Made by a program: the position numbers and the translations under genes. Under the pieces are notes generated by a model. The model worked only from the letters and a program-made list of their open reading frames with translations. It was not told the DNA's origin and made no database searches. A DNA stretch of 64,000 bases from Escherichia coli (GTDB lineage: Bacteria > Pseudomonadota > Gammaproteobacteria > Enterobacterales > Enterobacteriaceae), in the NCBI RefSeq assembly GCF_001677475.2, contig NZ_CP015229.1; one strand, 5' to 3'. This document shows, in pieces, positions 29,445 through 51,418 of the stretch. Each line of letters starts with the position of its first letter. The stretch's first letter is position 1.

Positions 29445-29495
29445 GCAAATGCAAATAGTTATCAATAATATTATCAATATATTTCTGCAATCAAT
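29445..29495. promoter_or_regulatory. Fur-box region in fepA-fes divergent promoter
   Basis: AT-rich gcaaatgcaaatagttatcaataatattatcaatat resembling GATAATGATAATCATTATC iron-box repeats. Confidence 0.6.
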
Positions 29496-39090: not shown

Positions 39091-40341
39091 ATGAATAAAC
39101 AATCCTGGCTGCTTAACCTCAGCCTGTTGAAAACGCACCCGGCGTTTCGCGCAGTATTCCTCGCTCGTTTTATCTCAATTGTGTCTCTGGGTTTGCTCGG
39201 CGTCGCGGTACCGGTGCAGATCCAGATGATGACGCATTCTACCTGGCAGGTGGGGCTTTCGGTGACGCTGACCGGCGGCGCGATGTTTGTTGGCCTGATG
39301 GTCGGCGGTGTGCTGGCGGATCGCTATGAGCGCAAAAAAGTGATTTTACTGGCGCGCGGCACCTGTGGCATTGGCTTCATTGGACTGTGCCTGAATGCGC
39401 TGCTGCCGGAGCCGTCATTGCTGGCAATCTATTCACTCGGTTTATGGGATGGTTTTTTCGCATCGCTTGGCGTTACGGCGCTACTGGCGGCGACACCTGC
39501 ACTGGTAGGGCGTGAAAACCTAATGCAGGCCGGGGCGATCACCATGTTGACCGTGCGTCTGGGATCGGTGATTTCGCCCATGATTGGCGGTTTACTGCTG
39601 GCGACTGGCGGCATAGCCTGGAACTACGGGCTGGCGGCGGCGGGCACGTTTATTACCTTGCTACCGTTGTTAAGCCTTCCGGCGTTGCCACCGCCACCGC
39701 AGCCGCGTGAGCATCCGTTGAAATCATTACTGGCAGGATTTCGTTTTCTGCTCGCCAGCCCGCTGGTAGGAGGGATTGCGCTGCTGGGTGGTTTATTGAC
39801 GATGGCGAGCGCGGTGCGGGTACTGTATCCGGCGCTGGCTGACAACTGGCAGATGTCGGCGGCACAGATTGGTTTTCTCTATGCGGCGATCCCGCTCGGT
39901 GCGGCTATTGGCGCGTTAACCAGCGGGAAGCTGGCACATAGCGCGCGACCAGGGTTATTGATGTTGCTCTCCACGCTGGGATCGTTCCTCGCCATTGGTC
40001 TGTTTGGCCTGATGCCGATGTGGATTTTAGGCGTGGTTTGTCTGGCGCTGTTCGGCTGGCTGAGCGCGGTTAGTTCGTTGCTGCAATATACAATGCTGCA
40101 AACGCAAACCCCGGAAGCGATGTTAGGGCGGATTAACGGTTTGTGGACGGCGCAAAATGTGACGGGAGATGCCATAGGCGCGGCGCTGCTGGGCGGTTTG
40201 GGAGCGATGATGACACCGGTTGCTTCCGCAAGCGCGAGCGGTTTTGGTTTGTTGATTATCGGCGTGTTGTTGTTGCTGGTGCTGGTGGAGTTGCGACGTT
40301 TTCGCCAGACGCCGCCGCAGGTGACAGCGTCCGACAGTTAG
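39091..40341 (+). CDS. entS: Enterobactin exporter (MFS) EntS
   Basis: 416-aa ORF, polytopic membrane protein. Confidence 0.95.
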
Positions 40342-40354
40342 CTAAAGGTGCATT

Positions 40355-40399
40355 TTCCCCTCACCCTAACCCTCTCCCCAAAGGGGCGAGGGGACTGTT
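40355..40399. repeat. GC-rich palindromic intergenic repeat, copy 1 (family name uncertain)
   Basis: ttcccctcaccctaaccctctccccaaaggggcgaggggactgtt; imperfect palindrome; near-identical element at 48749..48794. Confidence 0.6.
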
Positions 40400-40421
40400 A
40401 GTGCTCTAATTTTATGTTTTA

Positions 40422-41387
40422 TCAATCTTTTTTAAACAGTGAATTAAGTCTGTCCAGCACTTGCATGGCGCTGTAGTAATCCAGGCGGAACGTCTCGGTT
40501 CCCAGCGCATAAACCTGCTTGTTTTGTACTGCGGGCAGGTGTGCGAGCAGCGGATTAGCATAAATAGCATCGGCGTCTTTCTGATCACCGGCGAACAGGA
40601 ATAGTGACTCGCCATTTAACCCTGCAGCCAGATTTTCCCCACCAAGCTGAATGATGTCATGGCGTTTGCCCTGGCTTTGGCTGGCGTTTAAGCCTGCGGG
40701 CAACTTCGCCAGCGTAAAGCCGAGTTGTTCCAGCATCTGCCCTTGTGCTGATTCCGGCGTCCAGAGATTGGCACTGTGTGCAGCGGCAGTATAGACAATG
40801 GCAGTGATCGGCTGCGGCGGTAATTTGATTTGCTCTTTCGCCGCTGCCAGTTGCTTATCAAACTGTGCAATCCGCTTTGCCGCTTGTTTCTCATGCCCGG
40901 TAATTTCGCCAAGCTGCGTTAACAGCGACTGCCAGCTTTTGTCGTCGTAATTGATGATTAATGTCGGGGCGATGGTAGAGAGCTGATCATACAGCGCCAG
41001 CGCCGAATCACCGCCGGTTGCGCTAATTAAAATCAGATCCGGCATTTGCGCGGCAACGGCTTCTGCACTCGGTTCGCCGATATAGAGCCGTTGCAGTTTG
41101 CGTTCTGTCGCCACCTTGCTCCACTGGCGTAAAAAGCCCTGGTCATCCGCGACGCGGTTATTTGGCGTGGTCGCGCCGCTGGCGATCACCGGAGCATCAA
41201 TCGCCAGCAGTGAGCCGGTCAAGGTGACGCTGGTGGAAACAATACGCTGCGGCTGGCTTTCCAGGGTATGAGTGCCACGGCTGTCAGTAATCTGACGCGG
41301 CCAGTCGGCAGCCTGAACTACGGCTATTCCTGAAAGCAAAAGTCCTGTTAATAGAAGGGCGTTGCGGTAGAGCGAGGCGAGTCTCAC
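40422..41387 (-). CDS. fepB: Periplasmic ferric enterobactin-binding protein FepB
   Basis: 321-aa [29 protein letters not shown]... Confidence 0.95.
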
Positions 41388-44384: not shown

Positions 44385-45241
44385 ATGGCTATTCCAAAAT
44401 TACAGGCTTACGCACTGCCGGAGTCTCACGATATTCCGCAGAATAAAGTCGACTGGGCCTTTGAACCGCAACGTGCCGCGTTGTTAATCCATGATATGCA
44501 GGACTATTTTGTCAGCTTCTGGGGCGAGAACTGCCCGATGATGGAGCAGGTGATCGCGAATATTGCGGCACTACGCGACTACTGCAAACAGCACAATATC
44601 CCGGTTTATTACACCGCCCAGCCGAAAGAGCAGAGCGATGAAGATCGGGCGCTGTTGAATGATATGTGGGGACCGGGCCTGACCCGTTCGCCGGAACAGC
44701 AAAAGGTGGTGGATCGCCTGACGCCAGATGCCGACGACACGGTGCTGGTGAAGTGGCGCTACAGCGCGTTTCATCGTTCTCCGCTGGAGCAAATGCTCAA
44801 AGAGAGTGGACGTAACCAGCTGATTATTACCGGGGTATATGCCCACATTGGCTGTATGACCACCGCAACCGACGCATTTATGCGCGATATTAAACCGTTT
44901 ATGGTGGCGGATGCGCTGGCCGATTTCAGCCGTGACGAGCATTTGATGTCGCTGAAATATGTGGCTGGACGTTCTGGCCGGGTGGTGATGACCGAAGAAT
45001 TACTGCCAGCACCTATCCCCGCCAGCAAAGCGGCGCTGCGTGAGGTTATCCTGCCGTTGCTGGACGAGTCCGATGAACCGTTCGATGATGACAACCTGAT
45101 CGACTACGGTTTGGATTCGGTGCGCATGATGGCGCTGGCGGCGCGCTGGCGCAAAGTACATGGCGATATCGACTTTGTCATGCTGGCGAAAACCCCAACC
45201 ATTGATGCCTGGTGGAAACTGCTCTCCCGCGAGGTGAAATA

Positions 45242-45242
<1 letters not shown>
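44385..45242 (+). CDS. entB: Isochorismatase / aryl carrier protein EntB
   Basis: 285-aa ORF; stop overlaps entA start (TAATG). Confidence 0.95.
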
Positions 45243-46404
<1,162 letters not shown>

Positions 46405-46584
46405 GCCCGACAGAATTAAATGAGATTGCAGGAAAACTCGGTTAACGGAGTGATCGAGTTAACATTGTTAAGTTAAATATTGGTTTCAACTCCGATTTAC
46501 ATGGTTGCTGTGTTGTTAAATTGTACAAAGATGTTATAGAAACAAAATGTAACATCTCTATGGACACGCACACGGATAACAACT

Positions 46585-48690
46585 ATGAACAAATCAGGGA
46601 AATACCTCGTCTGGACAGTGCTCTCTGTAATGGGAGCATTTGCTCTGGGATACATTGCTTTAAATCGTGGGGAACAGATCAACGCGCTGTGGATTGTGGT
46701 GGCGTCGGTCTGTATCTATCTGATCGCTTATCGTTTTTATGGTCTGTATATCGCCAAAAATGTGCTGGCGGTTGACCCGACGCGTATGACGCCAGCGGTG
46801 CGCCATAACGACGGGCTGGATTATGTGCCGACGGACAAGAAAGTGCTGTTCGGTCACCATTTTGCGGCCATTGCCGGAGCTGGTCCGTTGGTGGGGCCGG
46901 TGCTGGCAGCGCAAATGGGCTACCTGCCGGGGATGATCTGGCTGCTTGCTGGGGTGGTTCTCGCCGGTGCGGTACAGGATTTCATGGTGCTGTTTGTTTC
47001 CACGCGCCGTGACGGTCGCTCGCTGGGTGAGCTGGTCAAAGAAGAGATGGGGCCAACCGCCGGGGTGATTGCGCTGGTTGCCTGCTTTATGATCATGGTC
47101 ATCATCCTTGCCGTGCTGGCGATGATCGTGGTGAAAGCCCTGACCCATAGCCCGTGGGGAACGTATACCGTTGCGTTCACCATTCCGCTGGCGCTGTTCA
47201 TGGGGATCTACCTGCGCTATCTGCGTCCAGGGCGTATTGGCGAAGTGTCGGTCATTGGCCTGGTGTTCCTGATTTTCGCCATTATCTCTGGCGGCTGGGT
47301 GGCAGAAAGTCCGACCTGGGCACCGTACTTTGACTTTACCGGCGTGCAGCTGACCTGGATGCTGGTGGGTTACGGCTTCGTGGCGGCGGTGCTGCCGGTG
47401 TGGTTGCTGCTGGCCCCGCGTGACTACCTCTCAACCTTCCTGAAAATCGGGACTATTGTCGGTCTGGCGGTAGGCATTCTGATTATGCGCCCGACGCTGA
47501 CCATGCCTGCTCTGACCAAATTTGTTGATGGCACTGGCCCGGTATGGACCGGTAACCTGTTCCCGTTCCTGTTTATTACTATCGCCTGTGGCGCGGTGTC
47601 TGGCTTCCATGCGCTGATCTCTTCTGGCACCACGCCGAAGATGCTGGCGAACGAAGGGCAGGCGTGCTTTATCGGCTACGGTGGGATGTTAATGGAATCC
47701 TTCGTGGCGATTATGGCGCTGGTTTCCGCCTGTATCATCGATCCGGGCGTTTACTTCGCAATGAACAGCCCAATGGCGGTGCTGGCTCCGGCAGGGACGG
47801 CGGATGTGGTTGCTTCTGCCGCGCAGGTGGTGAGTAGCTGGGGCTTTGCGATTACCCCGGATACGCTAAACCAGATTGCCAGCGAAGTGGGTGAACAGTC
47901 GATCATTTCCCGTGCGGGCGGTGCGCCGACCCTGGCGGTGGGGATGGCCTACATTCTGCACGGTGCGCTGGGCGGCATGATGGATGTGGCGTTCTGGTAT
48001 CACTTCGCCATTCTGTTTGAAGCACTGTTTATTCTGACGGCGGTGGATGCAGGTACGCGTGCTGCGCGCTTTATGTTGCAGGATCTGCTGGGCGTGGTGT
48101 CTCCGGGCCTGAAACGGACAGATTCTCTGCCTGCTAACCTGCTGGCAACGGCGCTGTGTGTGCTGGCGTGGGGCTACTTCCTGCATCAGGGCGTGGTCGA
48201 TCCGCTGGGCGGTATTAACACCCTGTGGCCGCTGTTTGGTATTGCCAACCAGATGCTGGCAGGGATGGCGCTGATGCTCTGTGCCGTAGTGCTGTTCAAG
48301 ATGAAACGTCAACGTTACGCCTGGGTGGCGCTGGTGCCAACGGCCTGGCTGCTGATTTGTACCCTGACCGCAGGCTGGCAGAAAGCGTTCAGCCCGGATG
48401 CGAAAGTGGGCTTCCTGGCCATTGCTAATAAGTTCCAGGCAATGATCGACAGCGGTAATATTCCGTCGCAGTATACTGAGTCACAACTGGCGCAACTGGT
48501 GTTCAACAACCGTCTGGATGCCGGGTTGACCATCTTCTTTATGGTGGTTGTGGTGGTTCTGGCGCTGTTCTCGATTAAGACGGCACTGGCGGCATTGAAA
48601 GAGCCGAAGCCAACGGCGAAAGAAACGCCGTATGAGCCAATGCCGGAAAATGTCGAGGAGATCGTGGCGCAGGCGAAAGGCGCGCACTAA
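46585..48690 (+). CDS. cstA: Carbon starvation protein A (peptide/pyruvate transporter)
   Basis: 701-aa polytopic membrane ORF. Confidence 0.95.
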   Translation: MNKSGKYLVWTVLSVMGAFALGYIALNRGEQINALWIVVASVCIYLIAYRFYGLYIAKNVLAVDPTRMTPAVRHNDGLDYVPTDKKVLFGHHFAAIAGAGPLVGPVLAAQMGYLPGMIWLLAGVVLAGAVQDFMVLFVSTRRDGRSLGELVKEEMGPTAGVIALVACFMIMVIILAVLAMIVVKALTHSPWGTYTVAFTIPLALFMGIYLRYLRPGRIGEVSVIGLVFLIFAIISGGWVAESPTWAPYFDFTGVQLTWMLVGYGFVAAVLPVWLLLAPRDYLSTFLKIGTIVGLAVGILIMRPTLTMPALTKFVDGTGPVWTGNLFPFLFITIACGAVSGFHALISSGTTPKMLANEGQACFIGYGGMLMESFVAIMALVSACIIDPGVYFAMNSPMAVLAPAGTADVVASAAQVVSSWGFAITPDTLNQIASEVGEQSIISRAGGAPTLAVGMAYILHGALGGMMDVAFWYHFAILFEALFILTAVDAGTRAARFMLQDLLGVVSPGLKRTDSLPANLLATALCVLAWGYFLHQGVVDPLGGINTLWPLFGIANQMLAGMALMLCAVVLFKMKRQRYAWVALVPTAWLLICTLTAGWQKAFSPDAKVGFLAIANKFQAMIDSGNIPSQYTESQLAQLVFNNRLDAGLTIFFMVVVVVLALFSIKTALAALKEPKPTAKETPYEPMPENVEEIVAQAKGAH

Positions 48691-48748
48691 AGTCAGAGTG
48701 AGGGGGGAATGTTGGCGAATGTTGGCGAAAGTTGGCATGGTGCCGAGG

Positions 48749-48794
48749 GTTCCCCCTCACCCTAACCCTCTCCCCGGTGGGGTGAGGGGACTGA
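48749..48794. repeat. GC-rich palindromic intergenic repeat, copy 2
   Basis: gttccccctcaccctaaccctctccccggtggggtgaggggactga; near-identical to 40355..40399; preceded by three 10-mer direct repeats (gaatgttggc) at 48718..48747. Confidence 0.6.
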
Positions 48795-48853
48795 CCGAGC
48801 GCGTTGATAGCTATTAATGCACTCTCTCAGCAATCTGATTACCGGAGGTATTG

Positions 48854-49051
48854 ATGTTTGATTCACTGGCAAAAGCCGGAAAATATTTAGGTCAGGCGGC
48901 GAAGCTGATGATTGGTATGCCTGATTACGACAACTATGTCGAACATATGCGGGTTAACCATCCCGATCAAACGCCGATGACCTACGAAGAGTTTTTCCGT
49001 GAGCGGCAGGACGCGCGCTACGGTGGAAAAGGTGGCGCGCGCTGCTGCTAA
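48854..49051 (+). CDS. ybdD: Small protein YbdD (DUF466)
   Basis: 65 aa [33 protein letters not shown]...; downstream of cstA. Confidence 0.85.
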
Positions 49052-49060
49052 ATTTGTACG

Positions 49061-50149
49061 TCAGGCTTTAAACGATTCCACTTTTTCGAACGCTGCACGC
49101 AACGTATCTGGTGTCAGCGTGACTGGCAGGTAATGAATGGACTCCACCGGACGTAAGGTGTGGGCAATCACTTTGTCGATCTCCGCCTGATTATTGATAT
49201 CCACTTCCAGCTCCGCCAGCGTAGTCGGCAGATGAAAACGTTGATACGCCCCGGTTAATTGCGCCAGCACATCATCCTGACCCAGCAAGGCGCTTTGCAC
49301 CAGAATGCCGTAGGCGACTTTGGTGCCGTGGAGAAACTTCTCGGTTTGCGGCAAAACGGTCAGACCGTTATGCACGGCATGGGCCGCCGCCACACGCGTA
49401 AAACGATCGCCCAGACCACCGACCATCCCACCACCAGCAATAATAGCATCCACCACATCGCAAAATGATTGCGTTAACTGTTGTTTTTGCTGATCGCTCA
49501 GCGCCTGTTCGCTACTGTTTAACAAGACGTCGCGAATGGCCTGCGCATTATTGATCCCCAGACGCACGGTTAGCGGCAAGGTTTCTGGTTGCGGAGCCAG
49601 CACCACCGCTTCATACCATTTCGCCAGCGTGTCACCGATCCCCGCCAGCAGATATTCTTGCGGCGCATTGAGGATAATCTCTGGCTCCACCAGCACCATA
49701 AAATTGGCGTCGTCGAAAATCTCATAATGCAGCGCCTGTCCGGCATCGTTATACCAGACGGAGAGCGGTGTCCAGGCGGCGCAGGTGGCGGCGATCGTCG
49801 GAACGGCAACAAACGGCAGACCGAGACGGCGGGCGAGGGCTTTCGCGGTGTCGAGCAGTGCGCCGCCGCCGACGCCAATCACCACGCTGCGATCGTCACC
49901 GGACTCAGCCGCCAGGTGCTGTACATCGCTTTCGCTGCAATGACCGCGAAACAAAATATGCTTTGCACCAGGCAGTTGAAACGCTGGTGGAAGTCTGATT
50001 TGCGCCGCAGCAATGGCGCGTTCGCCGTAGATCCACACCGCGCGAGAAAGCTGTTCATCAGTGAAAAAGTCGTGCAGGTGATTGAAACTTCCTGGATGTG
50101 AAAAGTAGTTAGCCGGGCCGACGACGACGCGGATAGGATTGTGAGGCAT
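49061..50149 (-). CDS. ybdH: Iron-containing (glycerol dehydrogenase-like) alcohol dehydrogenase family protein YbdH
   Basis: 362-aa ORF. Confidence 0.85.
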   Translation of the reverse strand: MPHNPIRVVVGPANYFSHPGSFNHLHDFFTDEQLSRAVWIYGERAIAAAQIRLPPAFQLPGAKHILFRGHCSESDVQHLAAESGDDRSVVIGVGGGALLDTAKALARRLGLPFVAVPTIAATCAAWTPLSVWYNDAGQALHYEIFDDANFMVLVEPEIILNAPQEYLLAGIGDTLAKWYEAVVLAPQPETLPLTVRLGINNAQAIRDVLLNSSEQALSDQQKQQLTQSFCDVVDAIIAGGGMVGGLGDRFTRVAAAHAVHNGLTVLPQTEKFLHGTKVAYGILVQSALLGQDDVLAQLTGAYQRFHLPTTLAELEVDINNQAEIDKVIAHTLRPVESIHYLPVTLTPDTLRAAFEKVESFKA

Positions 50150-50257
50150 GTTGTGTTGTCCTTATTGTTTTATTTAGACATCTAAACGTCTTGATTGCCA
50201 AATACTAGCATCGTGTTATAGTGCCTTCAACACGCAACTTCGTCAGGCACAATAAAA

Positions 50258-51418
50258 ATGACAAATAACCCTCTGATTCCACAAAGCAAACTTCCACAAC
50301 TTGGCACTACCATTTTCACCCAGATGAGCGCGCTGGCGCAGCAACACCAGGCGATTAACCTGTCGCAAGGCTTTCCTGATTTTGATGGTCCGCGCTATTT
50401 ACAGGAGCGGCTGGCGTACCACGTTGCCCAGGGGGCAAACCAATACGCGCCCATGACCGGCGTGCAGGCCTTGCGCGAGGCGATTGCTCAGAAAACGGAA
50501 CGTTTGTATGGCTATCAACCAGATGCCGATAGCGATATCACCGTAACGGCAGGGGCGACGGAAGCGTTATATGCAGCGATTACCGCATTGGTGCGCAATG
50601 GTGATGAAGTGATCTGCTTTGATCCCAGCTATGACAGTTACGCGCCCGCCATCGCGCTTTCGGGGGGAATAGTGAAACGTATTGCACTGCAACCACCGCA
50701 TTTTCGCGTGGACTGGCAGGAATTTGCCGCATTGTTAAGCGAGCGCACCCGACTGGTGATCCTCAACACCCCGCATAACCCCAGTGCAACTGTCTGGCAG
50801 CAGGCTGATTTCGCCGCTTTGTGGCAGGCAATTGCCGGGCACGAGATTTTTGTCATTAGCGATGAAGTTTACGAGCACATCAACTTTTCACAACAGGGCC
50901 ATGCCAGCGTGCTGTCGCATCCGCAGCTGCGTGAGCGGGCGGTGGCAGTTTCTTCATTTGGCAAGACTTATCATATGACCGGCTGGAAAGTGGGTTATTG
51001 CGTTGCGCCAGCGCCCATCAGTGCCGAAATTCGCAAGGTACATCAGTATCTGACCTTTTCGGTAAATACCCCGGCGCAACTGGCGCTTGCCGATATGCTA
51101 CGTGCAGAACCTGAGCATTATCTTGCGTTACCGGACTTTTATCGCCAGAAACGCGATATTCTGGTGAATGCCTTAAGTGAGAGTCGGCTGGAGATTTTAC
51201 CGTGCGAAGGTACATACTTTTTGCTGGTGGATTACAGCGCCGTGTCTACGCTGGATGACGTTGAGTTTTGCCAGTGGCTGACGCGGGAGCACGGTGTAGC
51301 GGCGATTCCGCTGTCGGTGTTTTGCGCCGATCCCTTCCCCCATAAACTGATTCGTCTCTGTTTTGCCAAGAAGGAATCGACGTTGCTGGCAGCAGCTGAA
51401 CGCCTGCGCCAGCTGTAG
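50258..51418 (+). CDS. ybdL: PLP-dependent methionine aminotransferase YbdL
   Basis: 386-aa ORF; class I aminotransferase. Confidence 0.9.
   Translation: MTNNPLIPQSKLPQLGTTIFTQMSALAQQHQAINLSQGFPDFDGPRYLQERLAYHVAQGANQYAPMTGVQALREAIAQKTERLYGYQPDADSDITVTAGATEALYAAITALVRNGDEVICFDPSYDSYAPAIALSGGIVKRIALQPPHFRVDWQEFAALLSERTRLVILNTPHNPSATVWQQADFAALWQAIAGHEIFVISDEVYEHINFSQQGHASVLSHPQLRERAVAVSSFGKTYHMTGWKVGYCVAPAPISAEIRKVHQYLTFSVNTPAQLALADMLRAEPEHYLALPDFYRQKRDILVNALSESRLEILPCEGTYFLLVDYSAVSTLDDVEFCQWLTREHGVAAIPLSVFCADPFPHKLIRLCFAKKESTLLAAAERLRQL

What the first reader, a model, noticed from the sequence alone, without database searches (positions are those of the whole stretch)
48707..48794. Composite structure after cstA: three tandem 10-mers nested inside a larger inverted repeat, then the palindromic element
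Immediately after the cstA stop, gtgagggggg (48709..) is followed by gaatgttggc, gaatgttggc, gaaagttggc (48718..48747), then ccccctcac and the palindromic element. The 10-mer array is therefore bracketed by complementary arms. It lies in the cstA-ybdD spacer; from recall ybdD is co-transcribed with cstA, so this structure could affect readthrough or coupling, and 10-mer copy number could vary between strains.
Basis: seen in the sequence. Interest (0 to 1): 0.3.

Follow-up and report, generated by a model that had tools for sequence, protein, structure and literature searches.

The report
BoxC repeat plus variable-loop hairpin after cstA
The structure is real but ordinary: a conserved stem-loop just after the cstA gene, whose loop carries a strain-variable 10-base tandem duplication (0-3 copies), is fused to a catalogued copy of the E. 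coli "BoxC" repeat, and together they most likely form a structured RNA 3' end for cstA rather than a new kind of regulator.

Summary
The left arm is 48692-48706. The array (GAATGTTGGC x2, then GAAAGTTGGC) is 48707-48736. The right arm is 48752-66.

The "palindromic element" is a BoxC repeat at 48749-48799, also published as the HPG1 G-quadruplex/hairpin motif. Its K-12 orthologue is listed as eco:7_BoxC and as HPGQ no. 19. The right arm of the large inverted repeat is the 5' end of this BoxC copy.

10-mer copy number varies from 0 to 3 among complete E. coli genomes:
- About 68% carry 2 copies.
- About 23% carry 0 copies; the three checked are B2-type strains (UTI89, Nissle).
- The window's 3-copy allele occurs in 50 of 5,426 genomes.
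- No 4-copy allele was found.

In silico, 0-6 copies leave the outer stem intact, so the array looks like neutral slippage in the apical loop.

Published K-12 Term-seq places a stationary-phase RNA 3' end at 632098. That is 10 nt past the BoxC G arm, at the foot of the composite, and corresponds to window 48799. No U-tract or promoter consensus is present. Nearly all Enterobacteriaceae carry some GC-rich palindrome in this spacer, but of different families.

Best reading: a protective, partly attenuating intercistronic RNA structure. Interest is low.

The parts
48688..48690 (+). cstA stop codon (TAA). The left arm of the hairpin starts 2 nt later.
   Evidence: ORF 46585..48690, 701 aa. Annotated as cstA, pyruvate/proton symporter, in all matching E. 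coli records.
48692..48706 (+). Left (G-rich) arm of hairpin A, GTCAGAGTGAGGGGG. It is unique sequence, not part of BoxC. Its first 5 nt (GUCAG) can instead close the whole composite by pairing with CUGAC at 48791-48795.
   Evidence: Inverted repeat I2. MFE helices. Conserved in all 19 Escherichia alleles examined.
48707..48736 (+). 10-bp tandem array GAATGTTGGC, GAATGTTGGC, GAAAGTTGGC in the apical part of hairpin A. It is a strain-variable duplication with 0-3 copies.
   Evidence: TRF score 53. Alleles with 0/1/2/3 copies. 3-copy allele in 50 of 5,426 genomes. No 4-copy allele.
48737..48751 (+). Rest of the apical region (ATGGTGCCGAGGGTT). It pairs with parts of the array to form inner helices 48712-17/48741-46 and 48719-26/48731-38.
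   Evidence: MFE helices.
48749..48799 (+). BoxC repeat element, also known as the HPG1 G-quadruplex/hairpin motif on the minus strand. Its parts are: 5' C-tract 1 (48752-48762), which is the right arm of hairpin A; C-tract 2 (48766-48775); G arm (48779-48789); tail ACTGACCGAG (48790-48799).
   Evidence: nhmmer with an HMM of 21 K-12 BoxC copies, orthologue excluded: 48750-48798, E = 1.6e-13, model positions 2-50 of 51. The K-12 orthologue is listed as eco:7_BoxC and as HPGQ no. 19. Exact HPG1 21-mer reverse complement at 48754-48774.
48766..48788 (+). Hairpin B, inside BoxC: CCCUC.CCCC / GGGG.GAGGG.
   Evidence: MFE helices 48766-70/48784-88 and 48772-75/48779-82.
48799..48799 (+). Position equivalent to the Term-seq RNA 3' end of K-12 MG1655 632098 (...GGGGACTGACCGAG^). 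It lies 10 nt after the BoxC G arm and 4 nt after the CUGAC closing helix.
   Evidence: Adams et al. 2021, Supplementary file 1, sheet LB 2.0: 632098 +, mean 1,686 reads, 84 nt upstream of ybdD. Mapped to the window by sequence identity of CTGACCGAG, 48791-48799. Not measured in the window's own strain.
48800..48830 (+). Third, AT-richer stem-loop (GCGUUGAU / AUUAAUGC). Other E. coli lineages, including K-12 and O157, carry a REP element at this place, and B2 strains carry a terminator-like hairpin.
   Evidence: Palindrome I1. Helix 48801-08/48813-20. Allele comparison. Terminator-like site in UTI89, L011 501-521.
48844..48856 (+). ybdD ribosome-binding site (GGAGG, 48844-48848) and ATG start codon (48854-48856).
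   Evidence: Sequence. ybdD annotation in all matched records, with protein WP_000460431.1 identical in the 14 E. coli loci fetched.

Best explanation
The region is a compound intercistronic RNA structure built from three things.

1. A genus-conserved stem-loop (hairpin A) starts 2 nt after the cstA stop codon.
2. A 10-bp slippage duplication sits in the apical loop of that hairpin. It varies from 0 to 3 copies between strains and is structurally inert.
3. A BoxC repeat supplies the 3' arm of hairpin A and adds a second hairpin.

RNA polymerase is not stopped here by a classical terminator, because no U-tract follows either hairpin. Transcripts that end or are cut further downstream are trimmed back by 3'-to-5' exonucleases until they meet the roughly -59 kcal/mol two-hairpin block. 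This leaves a stable, structured 3' end on cstA mRNA. It also probably lowers the amount of message that reaches ybdD, which encodes the small partner protein of CstA.

The element therefore works like an intercistronic REP element, as a stabiliser and partial attenuator.

Shown: the anatomy, the family membership, the polymorphism and the K-12 3' end.

Inferred: exonuclease trimming, the effect on cstA mRNA half-life, and the effect on the CstA:YbdD ratio.
For: Anatomy:
- Hairpin A has an 11-bp stem and folds at -37.4 kcal/mol on its own. The segment 48692-48795 folds at -59.0 kcal/mol into two hairpins closed by GUCAG/CUGAC. The spacer fold has z = -5.2.

BoxC membership:
- Profile hit with E = 1.6e-13. 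The orthologue is catalogued.

3' end mapping:
- K-12 Term-seq places a 3' end at 632098, exactly at the catalogued 3' boundary of the BoxC copy. It appears only in the LB OD 2.0 sheet. cstA is induced in late exponential and stationary phase (PMC7730263).
- Three other K-12 BoxC copies also carry curated 3' ends 3-11 nt past the G arm, all in the same RNA orientation: 3781065+, 4231270- and 624567-. My rough chance expectation is 0.1-1 of 22 copies.

No classical signals:
- No terminator or promoter consensus is found in the window or K-12 spacer.

Published framework:
- Steady-state 3' ends of Rho-dependent E. coli transcripts sit just downstream of stable stem-loops without U-tracts that block PNPase and RNase II (PMC6061677).
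- REP325 acts as both terminator and stabiliser inside the yjdMN operon (bioRxiv 10.64898/2026.03.23.713779).

Conservation of a structured spacer:
- Of the 74 of 77 species whose spacer is at least 30 nt long, 70 have a hairpin of at least 7 pairs, and the median fold z is -3.4. The palindromes belong to different families: simple hairpins, REP and BoxC.
- The paralogous btsT-yjiX pair also has an intercistronic GC hairpin.
- Hairpin A is kept in E. albertii through a two-sided change, A-U to U.G.

The array is inert in silico:
- The probability of the outer stem stays at or above 0.96 for 0-6 copies.

Why stoichiometry could matter:
- CstA and YbdD are both needed for pyruvate uptake (PMC5847655).
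Against: - The 3' end was mapped in K-12, which has 2 copies plus a downstream REP, not in this strain. It was seen in one condition at modest read depth (mean 1,686) and was classed 'orphan'.
- No half-life, exonuclease-mutant or bicyclomycin data exist for this site on the plus strand.
- The spacer is extremely plastic. BoxC is absent from the B2-type strains checked and from all four outgroup Escherichia species. REP is present or absent depending on lineage. That pattern is also what neutral accumulation of selfish palindromes would give.
- In K-12 a REP lies downstream of the mapped end. Simple trimming from far downstream should have stopped at the REP first. An endonucleolytic cut or a true termination event between BoxC and REP is therefore needed.
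- Covariation support for the stem is a single event.
Confidence: 0.55

Rival explanations
1. It is neutral genomic debris. The spacer is a permissive landing pad where small palindromic repeats (BoxC, REP) insert and are lost, and where replication slippage duplicates a 10-mer. The hairpins have no selected role, and the RNA 3' end is an incidental exonuclease stall with no consequence for expression.
For: - There is strong presence/absence polymorphism. Spacers of 112-182 nt occur in E. coli, with 0-3 copies of the 10-mer, with or without BoxC, and with or without REP.
- The B2-type strains checked lack both the array and the BoxC core yet keep an identical YbdD protein.
- Three species have 14-20 nt spacers with no hairpin at all.
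- Copy number has no predicted structural effect.
Against: - Nearly every lineage that loses one palindrome has another in its place.
- The hairpin A stem is retained across the genus, with one compensatory change.
- The paralogous btsT-yjiX operon has the same gene-hairpin-gene layout.
- Any structure this stable at an mRNA 3' end is expected to affect decay (PMC6061677).
Confidence: 0.3
2. It is a genuine transcription attenuator. RNA polymerase actually terminates just past BoxC, either Rho-dependently or with hairpin assistance. The very C-rich, G-free stretch CCCCCUCACCCUAACCCUCUCCCC would serve as a Rho loading site when it is not paired. The element would then directly set how much transcription enters ybdD.
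For: - The 3' end lies upstream of the K-12 REP, which is hard to explain by trimming from far downstream alone.
- The segment 48752-48775 is 24 nt long with no G.
- On the opposite strand, a significant Rho termination region peaks at K-12 631994, just past the complement of hairpin A (Rho score 4.5, p = 8e-6).
- REP325 shows partly Rho-dependent attenuation in a comparable position.
Against: - The C-rich tract is predicted to be almost fully base-paired.
- No bicyclomycin data exist for the plus strand here in stationary phase.
- There is no U-tract.
- ybdD has no recognisable promoter of its own, yet it is needed for CstA function. Strong termination would therefore be counter-productive.
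Confidence: 0.2
3. It is a DNA-level G-quadruplex/hairpin/duplex switch, as proposed by Kaplan et al. 2016. The minus-strand HPG1 sequence GGGAGAGGGTTAGGGTGAGGG would fold into a G-quadruplex that blocks or modulates polymerases between cstA and ybdD.
For: - The exact HPG1 21-mer is on the minus strand at 48774-48754.
- The K-12 copy is in the paper's Table 1.
- The authors report circular dichroism evidence for a quadruplex/hairpin transition in vitro.
Against: - The quadruplex-forming strand is the template strand for cstA, so cstA mRNA carries the C-rich complement.
- The upstream arm of hairpin A competes for the same C-tract.
- There is no in vivo evidence, and the authors themselves decline to assign a role.
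- 3' ends at BoxC copies were found only on RNAs in the C-to-G orientation.
Confidence: 0.05
4. The 10-bp array is an iteron-like protein-binding array, with sites phased one helical turn apart, or a contingency locus whose copy number switches expression of ybdD.
For: - The 10-bp period equals one DNA turn.
- Copy number differs between strains that share the same downstream haplotype: L001/L002/L006 have 3/2/1 copies and L003/L005 have 3/2.
Against: - There are only 0-3 copies, and about a quarter of E. coli have none.
- The unit occurs nowhere else in the window.
- No promoter elements flank it.
- It is not in a coding frame or in a promoter spacer.
- The array is absent from the outgroup species.
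Confidence: 0.03

Closest known systems
BoxC repeats of E. coli and enterobacteria. From my own recollection, they were named by Bergler et al. 1992 and surveyed by Bachellier et al. The 22 K-12 copies are listed by Petrillo et al. 2008, PMC2267715.
   Same: Window 48749-48799 matches the family profile end to end (E = 1.6e-13). The K-12 orthologue is literally member eco:7_BoxC. It is intergenic, GC-rich and an imperfect palindrome. A second copy lies in the window at 40353-40402.
   Different: Here the otherwise unpaired 5' C-tract of BoxC is paired with a unique upstream G-rich arm, giving a two-hairpin composite. The loop of that extra hairpin carries a variable tandem duplication. This window's copy has GGGGTGAGGGG where the other alleles and nearly all K-12 copies have GGGGCGAGGGG.
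HPG1 'G-quadruplex-hairpin-duplex switch' motif (Kaplan et al. 2016, PMC5100583)
   Same: It is the same sequence family under another name. The 21-mer GGGAGAGGGTTAGGGTGAGGG is present exactly on the minus strand, and the cstA>>>ybdD copy is HPGQ no. 19 in their Table 1.
   Different: That paper treats it as a DNA quadruplex and did not link it to BoxC. Its motif comparison (CollecTF transcription-factor sites) found no associated known motif. The evidence gathered here points to an RNA hairpin at transcript 3' ends.
REP/BIME elements acting between genes of an operon, such as REP325 in yjdMN (Harris et al. 2026 bioRxiv) and, from my own knowledge, the classical malE-malF case
   Same: Works like: a stable palindromic repeat without a U-tract sits between a highly needed upstream gene and a downstream gene, and an RNA 3' end lies at its foot. 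Location varies between strains. K-12 even carries a true REP 15 nt further downstream in the same spacer.
   Different: The sequence family is different. The window itself has no REP. Stabilisation and attenuation have not been measured here.
Protective 3' stem-loops of Rho-dependent transcripts (Dar & Sorek 2018, PMC6061677)
   Same: An energetically stable stem-loop is not followed by U residues, and the steady-state 3' end lies a few nt downstream.
   Different: Rho dependence of the cstA plus-strand end has not been tested. The site is intercistronic rather than at the end of an operon.
Slipped-strand tandem repeats (VNTR or contingency loci)
   Same: The units are head to tail and nearly perfect. 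Copy number differs between strains, including strains that share the flanking haplotype.
   Different: Copy number is very low (0-3). The array is not in a reading frame or a promoter spacer. There is no predicted structural or regulatory consequence.
btsT-yjiX intercistronic hairpin (paralogous transporter and small-protein pair in K-12)
   Same: The architecture is the same: a CstA-family transporter gene, then a GC-rich stem-loop, then a YbdD/YjiX-family gene.
   Different: That one is a simple 8-bp stem with a UUCG loop and a U-rich tail, so it is terminator-like. It is not a repeat-family member and has no tandem array.

Membership tests
BoxC repeat family | Full-length sequence match to the family profile (about 50-56 bp) | tested here: met
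   nhmmer with an HMM built from 21 published K-12 copies, orthologue eco:7 left out: window 48750-48798, score 46.6, E = 1.6e-13, model positions 2-50 of 51.
BoxC repeat family | Two C-rich tracts (CCCCTCACCC, CCCTCTCCCC) followed by one G-rich arm (GGGGCGAGGGG), forming an imperfect palindrome | tested here: met
   Tracts at 48753-62 and 48766-75, G arm at 48779-89. Inverted repeat I3 is 100% complementary. Hairpin seen in the MFE.
BoxC repeat family | Dispersed, multi-copy and intergenic | tested here: met
   A second copy lies at 40353-40402 between the convergent genes entS and fepB. A query containing that copy hits a median of 8 places per E. coli genome. The orthologous K-12 copy is catalogued.
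REP/BIME elements | REP consensus palindrome (GCCGGATAAGGCG...CGCCGCATCCGGC) | tested here: not met
   Absent from the window spacer. Present in the same spacer of K-12, O157 and the outgroup species.
Intrinsic (Rho-independent) terminator | GC-rich stem-loop immediately followed by a U-tract | tested here: not met
   The scan found none in 48300-49300 or in the K-12 spacer. The sequences after the stems are CCCUAACC and ACUGACCG. B2 strains do have such a site elsewhere in the spacer.
Variable-number tandem repeat (slippage locus) | Head-to-tail near-identical units whose number differs among strains | tested here: met
   TRF gives 3.0 copies at 95% match. Alleles with 0, 1, 2 and 3 copies exist. 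50 of 5,426 genomes have 3 copies and none has 4.
Variable-number tandem repeat (slippage locus) | Copy number changes a phenotype or expression state (contingency behaviour) | not testable with these tools
   There is only an in silico indication of no structural effect.
HPG1 G-quadruplex motif | GGGAGAGGGTTAGGGTGAGGG, or a variant with one mismatch | tested here: met
   The exact reverse complement is at 48754-48774.
HPG1 G-quadruplex motif | Forms a G-quadruplex in vivo | not testable with these tools
   Only the authors' in vitro circular dichroism data exist.
Protective 3' stem-loop / intercistronic stabiliser (function class) | RNA 3' end mapped a few nt downstream of a stable stem-loop | tested here: met
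   Met for the K-12 orthologue only: 632098, 10 nt past the G arm. Not measured in this strain.
Protective 3' stem-loop / intercistronic stabiliser (function class) | Removal shortens the upstream mRNA half-life, or exonuclease mutants extend the 3' end | not testable with these tools
   No such data were found for cstA.
Rfam RNA families | Match at gathering score | tested here: not met
   The best hit is mir-423 at 25 bits against a gathering score of 71. It is a generic hairpin resemblance only.

The most novel reading that the evidence does not exclude
BoxC repeats, whose function I did not find established in the papers read here, may be orientation-specific RNA 3'-end-forming modules. 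At cstA-ybdD the host would have paired the free C-tract of BoxC with a pre-existing arm, making an unusually strong block that sets the CstA:YbdD ratio. The lineage-specific spacer types would then give heritable differences in pyruvate uptake. These types are: no BoxC but a terminator-like hairpin in B2; BoxC plus REP in K-12; and BoxC with a 3-copy loop in this lineage. A related point is that the ancestral hairpin arm (GTTCCCCTCACTCTCAGC) matches the BoxC 5' end at 15 of 18 positions. That would be the first hint of a target or homology preference for BoxC insertion.
Probability: 0.12. Interest if true: 0.5.

Novelty: already known. Interest (0 to 1): 0.2.

Why it matters
It matters little as a discovery. 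The palindromic element is a catalogued BoxC/HPG1 copy, and the 10-mer array is a low-copy slippage polymorphism with no predicted effect.

Two things are modestly useful:
- It gives a clean, checkable example of how an intergenic spacer between a transporter gene and its small partner gene is repeatedly rebuilt from different palindromes while always staying structured.
- It links BoxC copies to mapped RNA 3' ends at 4 of 22 K-12 copies, all in one orientation. That suggests a simple, testable role for a repeat family whose function I did not find established in the papers I read.

If spacer type does alter the CstA:YbdD ratio, it would be a source of strain differences in pyruvate scavenging that leaves the proteins unchanged.

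Tried and rejected
- **Rfam at permissive E-value.** Only sub-threshold microRNA-like and frameshift-element-like hits appeared, reflecting a generic GC hairpin. Rejected.
- **Sigma-70 promoter and intrinsic terminator scans of the window and K-12 spacer.** Nothing was found, so a classical terminator and an obvious ybdD promoter are rejected. B2 strains do have a terminator-like site.
- **Synthetic 4-copy query against 5,426 E. coli genomes.** Every top hit spans only 51 nt, which is the 3-copy locus. No allele with 4 or more copies was found.
- **Alternative pairing of the shared C-tract with the downstream G arm, as a possible switch.** The partition function gives P of about 0.000 at every copy number. 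Rejected as an equilibrium feature. A terminating ribosome could still transiently free it.
- **Other 3'-end datasets.** No supplements are held for Dar & Sorek 2018 or Choe 2022, and the TERMITe supplements have no cstA or ybdD entry.
- **Literature search for the original BoxC description or a BoxC function.** Nothing usable turned up beyond Petrillo 2008. Attribution of the name to Bergler and Bachellier rests on my memory.
- **Gasperotti 2020.** It says nothing about ybdD or the spacer.
- **Order of events in the spacer's evolution.** I tried to work out the order of BoxC insertion, B2-type deletion and recombination from the alleles. Outgroups show that hairpin plus REP is ancestral and that BoxC is E. 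coli-specific. The B2 allele mixes ancestral and BoxC-flank sequence, and I could not resolve its origin.

Full report
**1. Observation**

- The window carries cstA (46585-48690) followed by ybdD (ATG at 48854), with a 163-nt spacer between them.
  - GTGAGGGGGG is at 48698-48707.
  - The three 10-mers are at 48707-48736. TRF gives period 10, 3.0 copies and score 53.
  - CCCCCTCAC is at 48752-48760.
- The repeat finder reports 15-nt arms at 48692-48706 and 48752-48766, 87% complementary. It also reports a second, perfect 10-nt inverted repeat at 48753-62 and 48780-89.
- The array is the best tandem repeat in the whole window.
- The spacer RNA folds far better than shuffled controls: -78.5 against -56.8 +/- 4.2 kcal/mol, z = -5.2.

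**2. What the palindromic element is**

- Window 48754-48774 is the exact reverse complement of the 21-mer GGGAGAGGGTTAGGGTGAGGG. Kaplan et al. 2016 call this HPG1. Their Table 1 lists the K-12 cstA>>>ybdD copy as HPGQ no. 19.
- The same K-12 sequence is member eco:7_BoxC in the BoxC family file of Petrillo et al. 2008.
- A profile HMM built from the other 21 published BoxC copies hits the window twice.
  - 48750-48798, E = 1.6e-13, essentially full length.
  - 40353-40402, E = 7e-18, which lies between the convergent genes entS and fepB.
- The element is therefore a BoxC repeat.
- The BoxC consensus begins (T)GTTCCCCTCACCC. Only the left arm (48692-48706) and the loop are unique sequence.

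**3. Variation within E. coli**

- The locus is present in 5,419 of 5,426 complete genomes, but the matched span varies in length.
- Fourteen representative loci give spacers of 112 to 182 nt. The classes are:

| Class | Example strains | 10-mer copies |
|---|---|---|
| No array, no BoxC core, terminator-like hairpin instead | B2-type: UTI89, Nissle | 0 |
| One copy | L006, L009, L012 | 1 |
| Two copies, usually with a REP inserted after BoxC | K-12, O157 | 2 |
| Three copies | this window, GF43, TL20 | 3 |

- In an evenly spaced sample of 60 hits, classified by span length, about 68% have 2 copies, 23% have 0, 5% have 1 and 3% have 3.
- A junction-specific query finds the 3-copy allele in 50 of 5,426 genomes.
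- A synthetic 4-copy query finds only 3-copy loci.
- Strains sharing the same downstream haplotype differ in copy number: L001/L002/L006 have 3/2/1 and L003/L005 have 3/2. Changes are therefore recurrent, or the haplotypes have been shuffled by recombination.
- The window itself is only about 96.5% identical to the nearest complete E. coli genome over 6 kb. It therefore comes from a divergent Escherichia lineage that shares the rare 3-copy form.

**4. Variation beyond E. coli**

- I fetched ybdD loci from 80 species and extracted 77 cstA-ybdD spacers.
- Four other Escherichia species have hairpin A followed by a REP, no BoxC, and 0-1 copy of the 10-mer. So hairpin plus REP is ancestral. BoxC and the expansion of the 10-mer are E. 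coli events.
- E. albertii keeps one stem position through a two-sided change, A-U to U.G.
- Further out, the spacer nearly always holds a GC-rich palindrome, but of different kinds:
  - simple GCCCTCTCC/GGAGAGGGC hairpins in Citrobacter and Salmonella;
  - REP-like units in Enterobacter and Lelliottia;
  - single or paired BoxC-like units in Enterobacter, Leclercia, Pseudocitrobacter, Phytobacter and others.
- 74 of the 77 spacers are at least 30 nt long. Of these 74:
  - 70 have a hairpin of at least 7 pairs;
  - 60 fold with z of -2 or lower (median -3.4);
  - only 24 have a U-rich tail.
- Three species have 14-20 nt spacers, which implies co-transcription in those species.
- The paralogous K-12 pair btsT-yjiX also has an intercistronic GC hairpin.

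**5. Structure**

- In the MFE fold, hairpin A has an 11-bp stem (48698-48708 with 48750-48760).
- The 10-mers lie in its apical part and pair weakly with each other and with the remaining loop.
- The BoxC G arm pairs with the second C-tract (48766-75 with 48779-88).
- An RNA ending near the mapped 3' end (48692-48795) folds at -59 kcal/mol, as two hairpins closed by GUCAG/CUGAC.
- Changing the array from 0 to 6 copies in silico leaves the probability of the outer stem at 0.96 or higher. The alternative pairing of the shared C-tract with the downstream G arm stays at about 0.
- The array is therefore structurally inert, which fits its free variation.

**6. Transcript ends**

- Adams et al. 2021 (Term-seq, MG1655) list a curated 3' end at 632098 (+), with a mean of 1,686 reads, in the LB OD 2.0 sheet only. 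It lies 84 nt upstream of ybdD.
- That position is the 99th nt of the K-12 spacer (...GGGGCGAGGGGACTGACCGAG^). It is 10 nt past the BoxC G arm, coincides with the catalogued end of eco:7_BoxC, and corresponds to window 48799.
- cstA is induced in late exponential and stationary phase, which matches the condition.
- No 3' end is listed at hairpin A.
- On the opposite strand, a Rho termination region peaks at 631994, just past the complement of hairpin A. That RNA comes from the hcxA direction, antisense to ybdD.
- No U-tract terminator and no sigma-70-like promoter is found in the window or K-12 spacers.
- Three further K-12 BoxC copies carry curated 3' ends 3-11 nt past the G arm, all in the C-to-G RNA orientation: 3781065+, 4231270- and 624567-. 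The opposite-orientation motifs have none.

**7. Mechanism**

- The best-supported reading is a protective, partly attenuating intercistronic RNA structure. [quoted passage not shown]
- Shown: the anatomy, family membership, polymorphism, the K-12 3' end, and conservation of a structured spacer.
- Inferred: exonuclease trimming or a nearby cut or termination event, stabilisation of cstA mRNA, and reduced ybdD message.
- CstA and YbdD are both required for constitutive pyruvate uptake and are predicted to form a complex. Their ratio could therefore matter.
- The main rival is that the whole arrangement is neutral accumulation of selfish palindromes plus slippage. The plasticity of the spacer supports that. 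The near-universal replacement of one palindrome by another argues against it.
- A DNA G-quadruplex switch and an iteron or contingency role for the 10-mers have little support.

**8. Verdict**

- The parts are known kinds. One part is a catalogued repeat copy.
- The tandem 10-mers appear to be a neutral polymorphism.
- Interest is low. The only modestly new lead is the association of BoxC copies with RNA 3' ends.

Noticed in passing
window 40353-40402: A second BoxC copy (E = 7e-18 against the family profile) lies in the gap between the convergent genes entS (stop at 40341) and fepB (ends at 40422). A query containing it hits a median of 8 places per E. coli genome.
   Followed up: partly
K-12 MG1655 632098+, 3781065+, 4231270-, 624567- (Adams et al. 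2021 Supplementary file 1); window equivalent of the first is 48799: Four of the 22 catalogued K-12 BoxC copies carry a curated Term-seq 3' end 3-11 nt past the G arm. All are on RNAs in the C-rich-to-G-rich orientation, and none is in the opposite orientation. The rough chance expectation is 0.1-1. This suggests BoxC hairpins mark RNA 3' ends. I did not see this stated in the papers I read.
   Followed up: partly
window 49049-49063: ybdD (+, stop codon at 49049-49051) and hcxA (-, stop codon at 49061-49063) converge with only 9 nt between their stop codons, and no terminator-like site was found. Each transcript must therefore run antisense into the other gene. In K-12, a Rho termination region on the minus strand peaks at 631994, just beyond the cstA-proximal hairpin. 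The spacer structures may thus also bound hcxA transcripts.
   Followed up: partly
L011 (UTI89) 501-521; also L010 and L013: B2-type strains lack the 10-mer array, the BoxC core and the REP. They instead carry a terminator-like hairpin, GCCCTCTTAATTCAGGAGGGC followed by ATTTGTATTA, just upstream of the ybdD ribosome-binding site. About 23% of sampled complete genomes have this 112-nt spacer.
   Followed up: partly
window 45000-51000: The window is only about 96.3-96.5% identical to the closest of 5,426 complete E. coli genomes over 6 kb of core genes (entA, entH, cstA, ybdD, hcxA, ybdL). It appears to come from a divergent Escherichia lineage rather than a typical E. coli strain.
   Followed up: no
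window 48783: The BoxC G arm reads GGGGTGAGGGG in this window. All 14 E. coli alleles examined, and nearly all K-12 BoxC copies, have GGGGCGAGGGG. The T makes the arm a perfect complement of the first C-tract (CCCCTCACCC).
   Followed up: partly
L016-L019 and L012, right arm of hairpin A: In alleles without BoxC, the 3' arm of the hairpin (GTTCCCCTCACTCTCAGC) already matches the BoxC 5' end (GTTCCCCTCACCCTAACC) at 15 of 18 positions. BoxC may therefore have entered by homology with, or targeting of, a sequence resembling its own terminus. Alternatively, the hairpin is itself an old BoxC remnant.
   Followed up: partly
L096 (K-12 4589080-4589128, minus strand): The paralogous btsT-yjiX pair has a 49-nt spacer with an AGCCCCGC-TTCG-GCGGGGCT hairpin followed by a U-rich tail. 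This is the same transporter-hairpin-small-protein layout.
   Followed up: no
window 29454-29483: This is the only other tandem repeat in the window with TRF score of at least 40: AATATTATCAAT, period 12, 2.5 copies, score 44.
   Followed up: no
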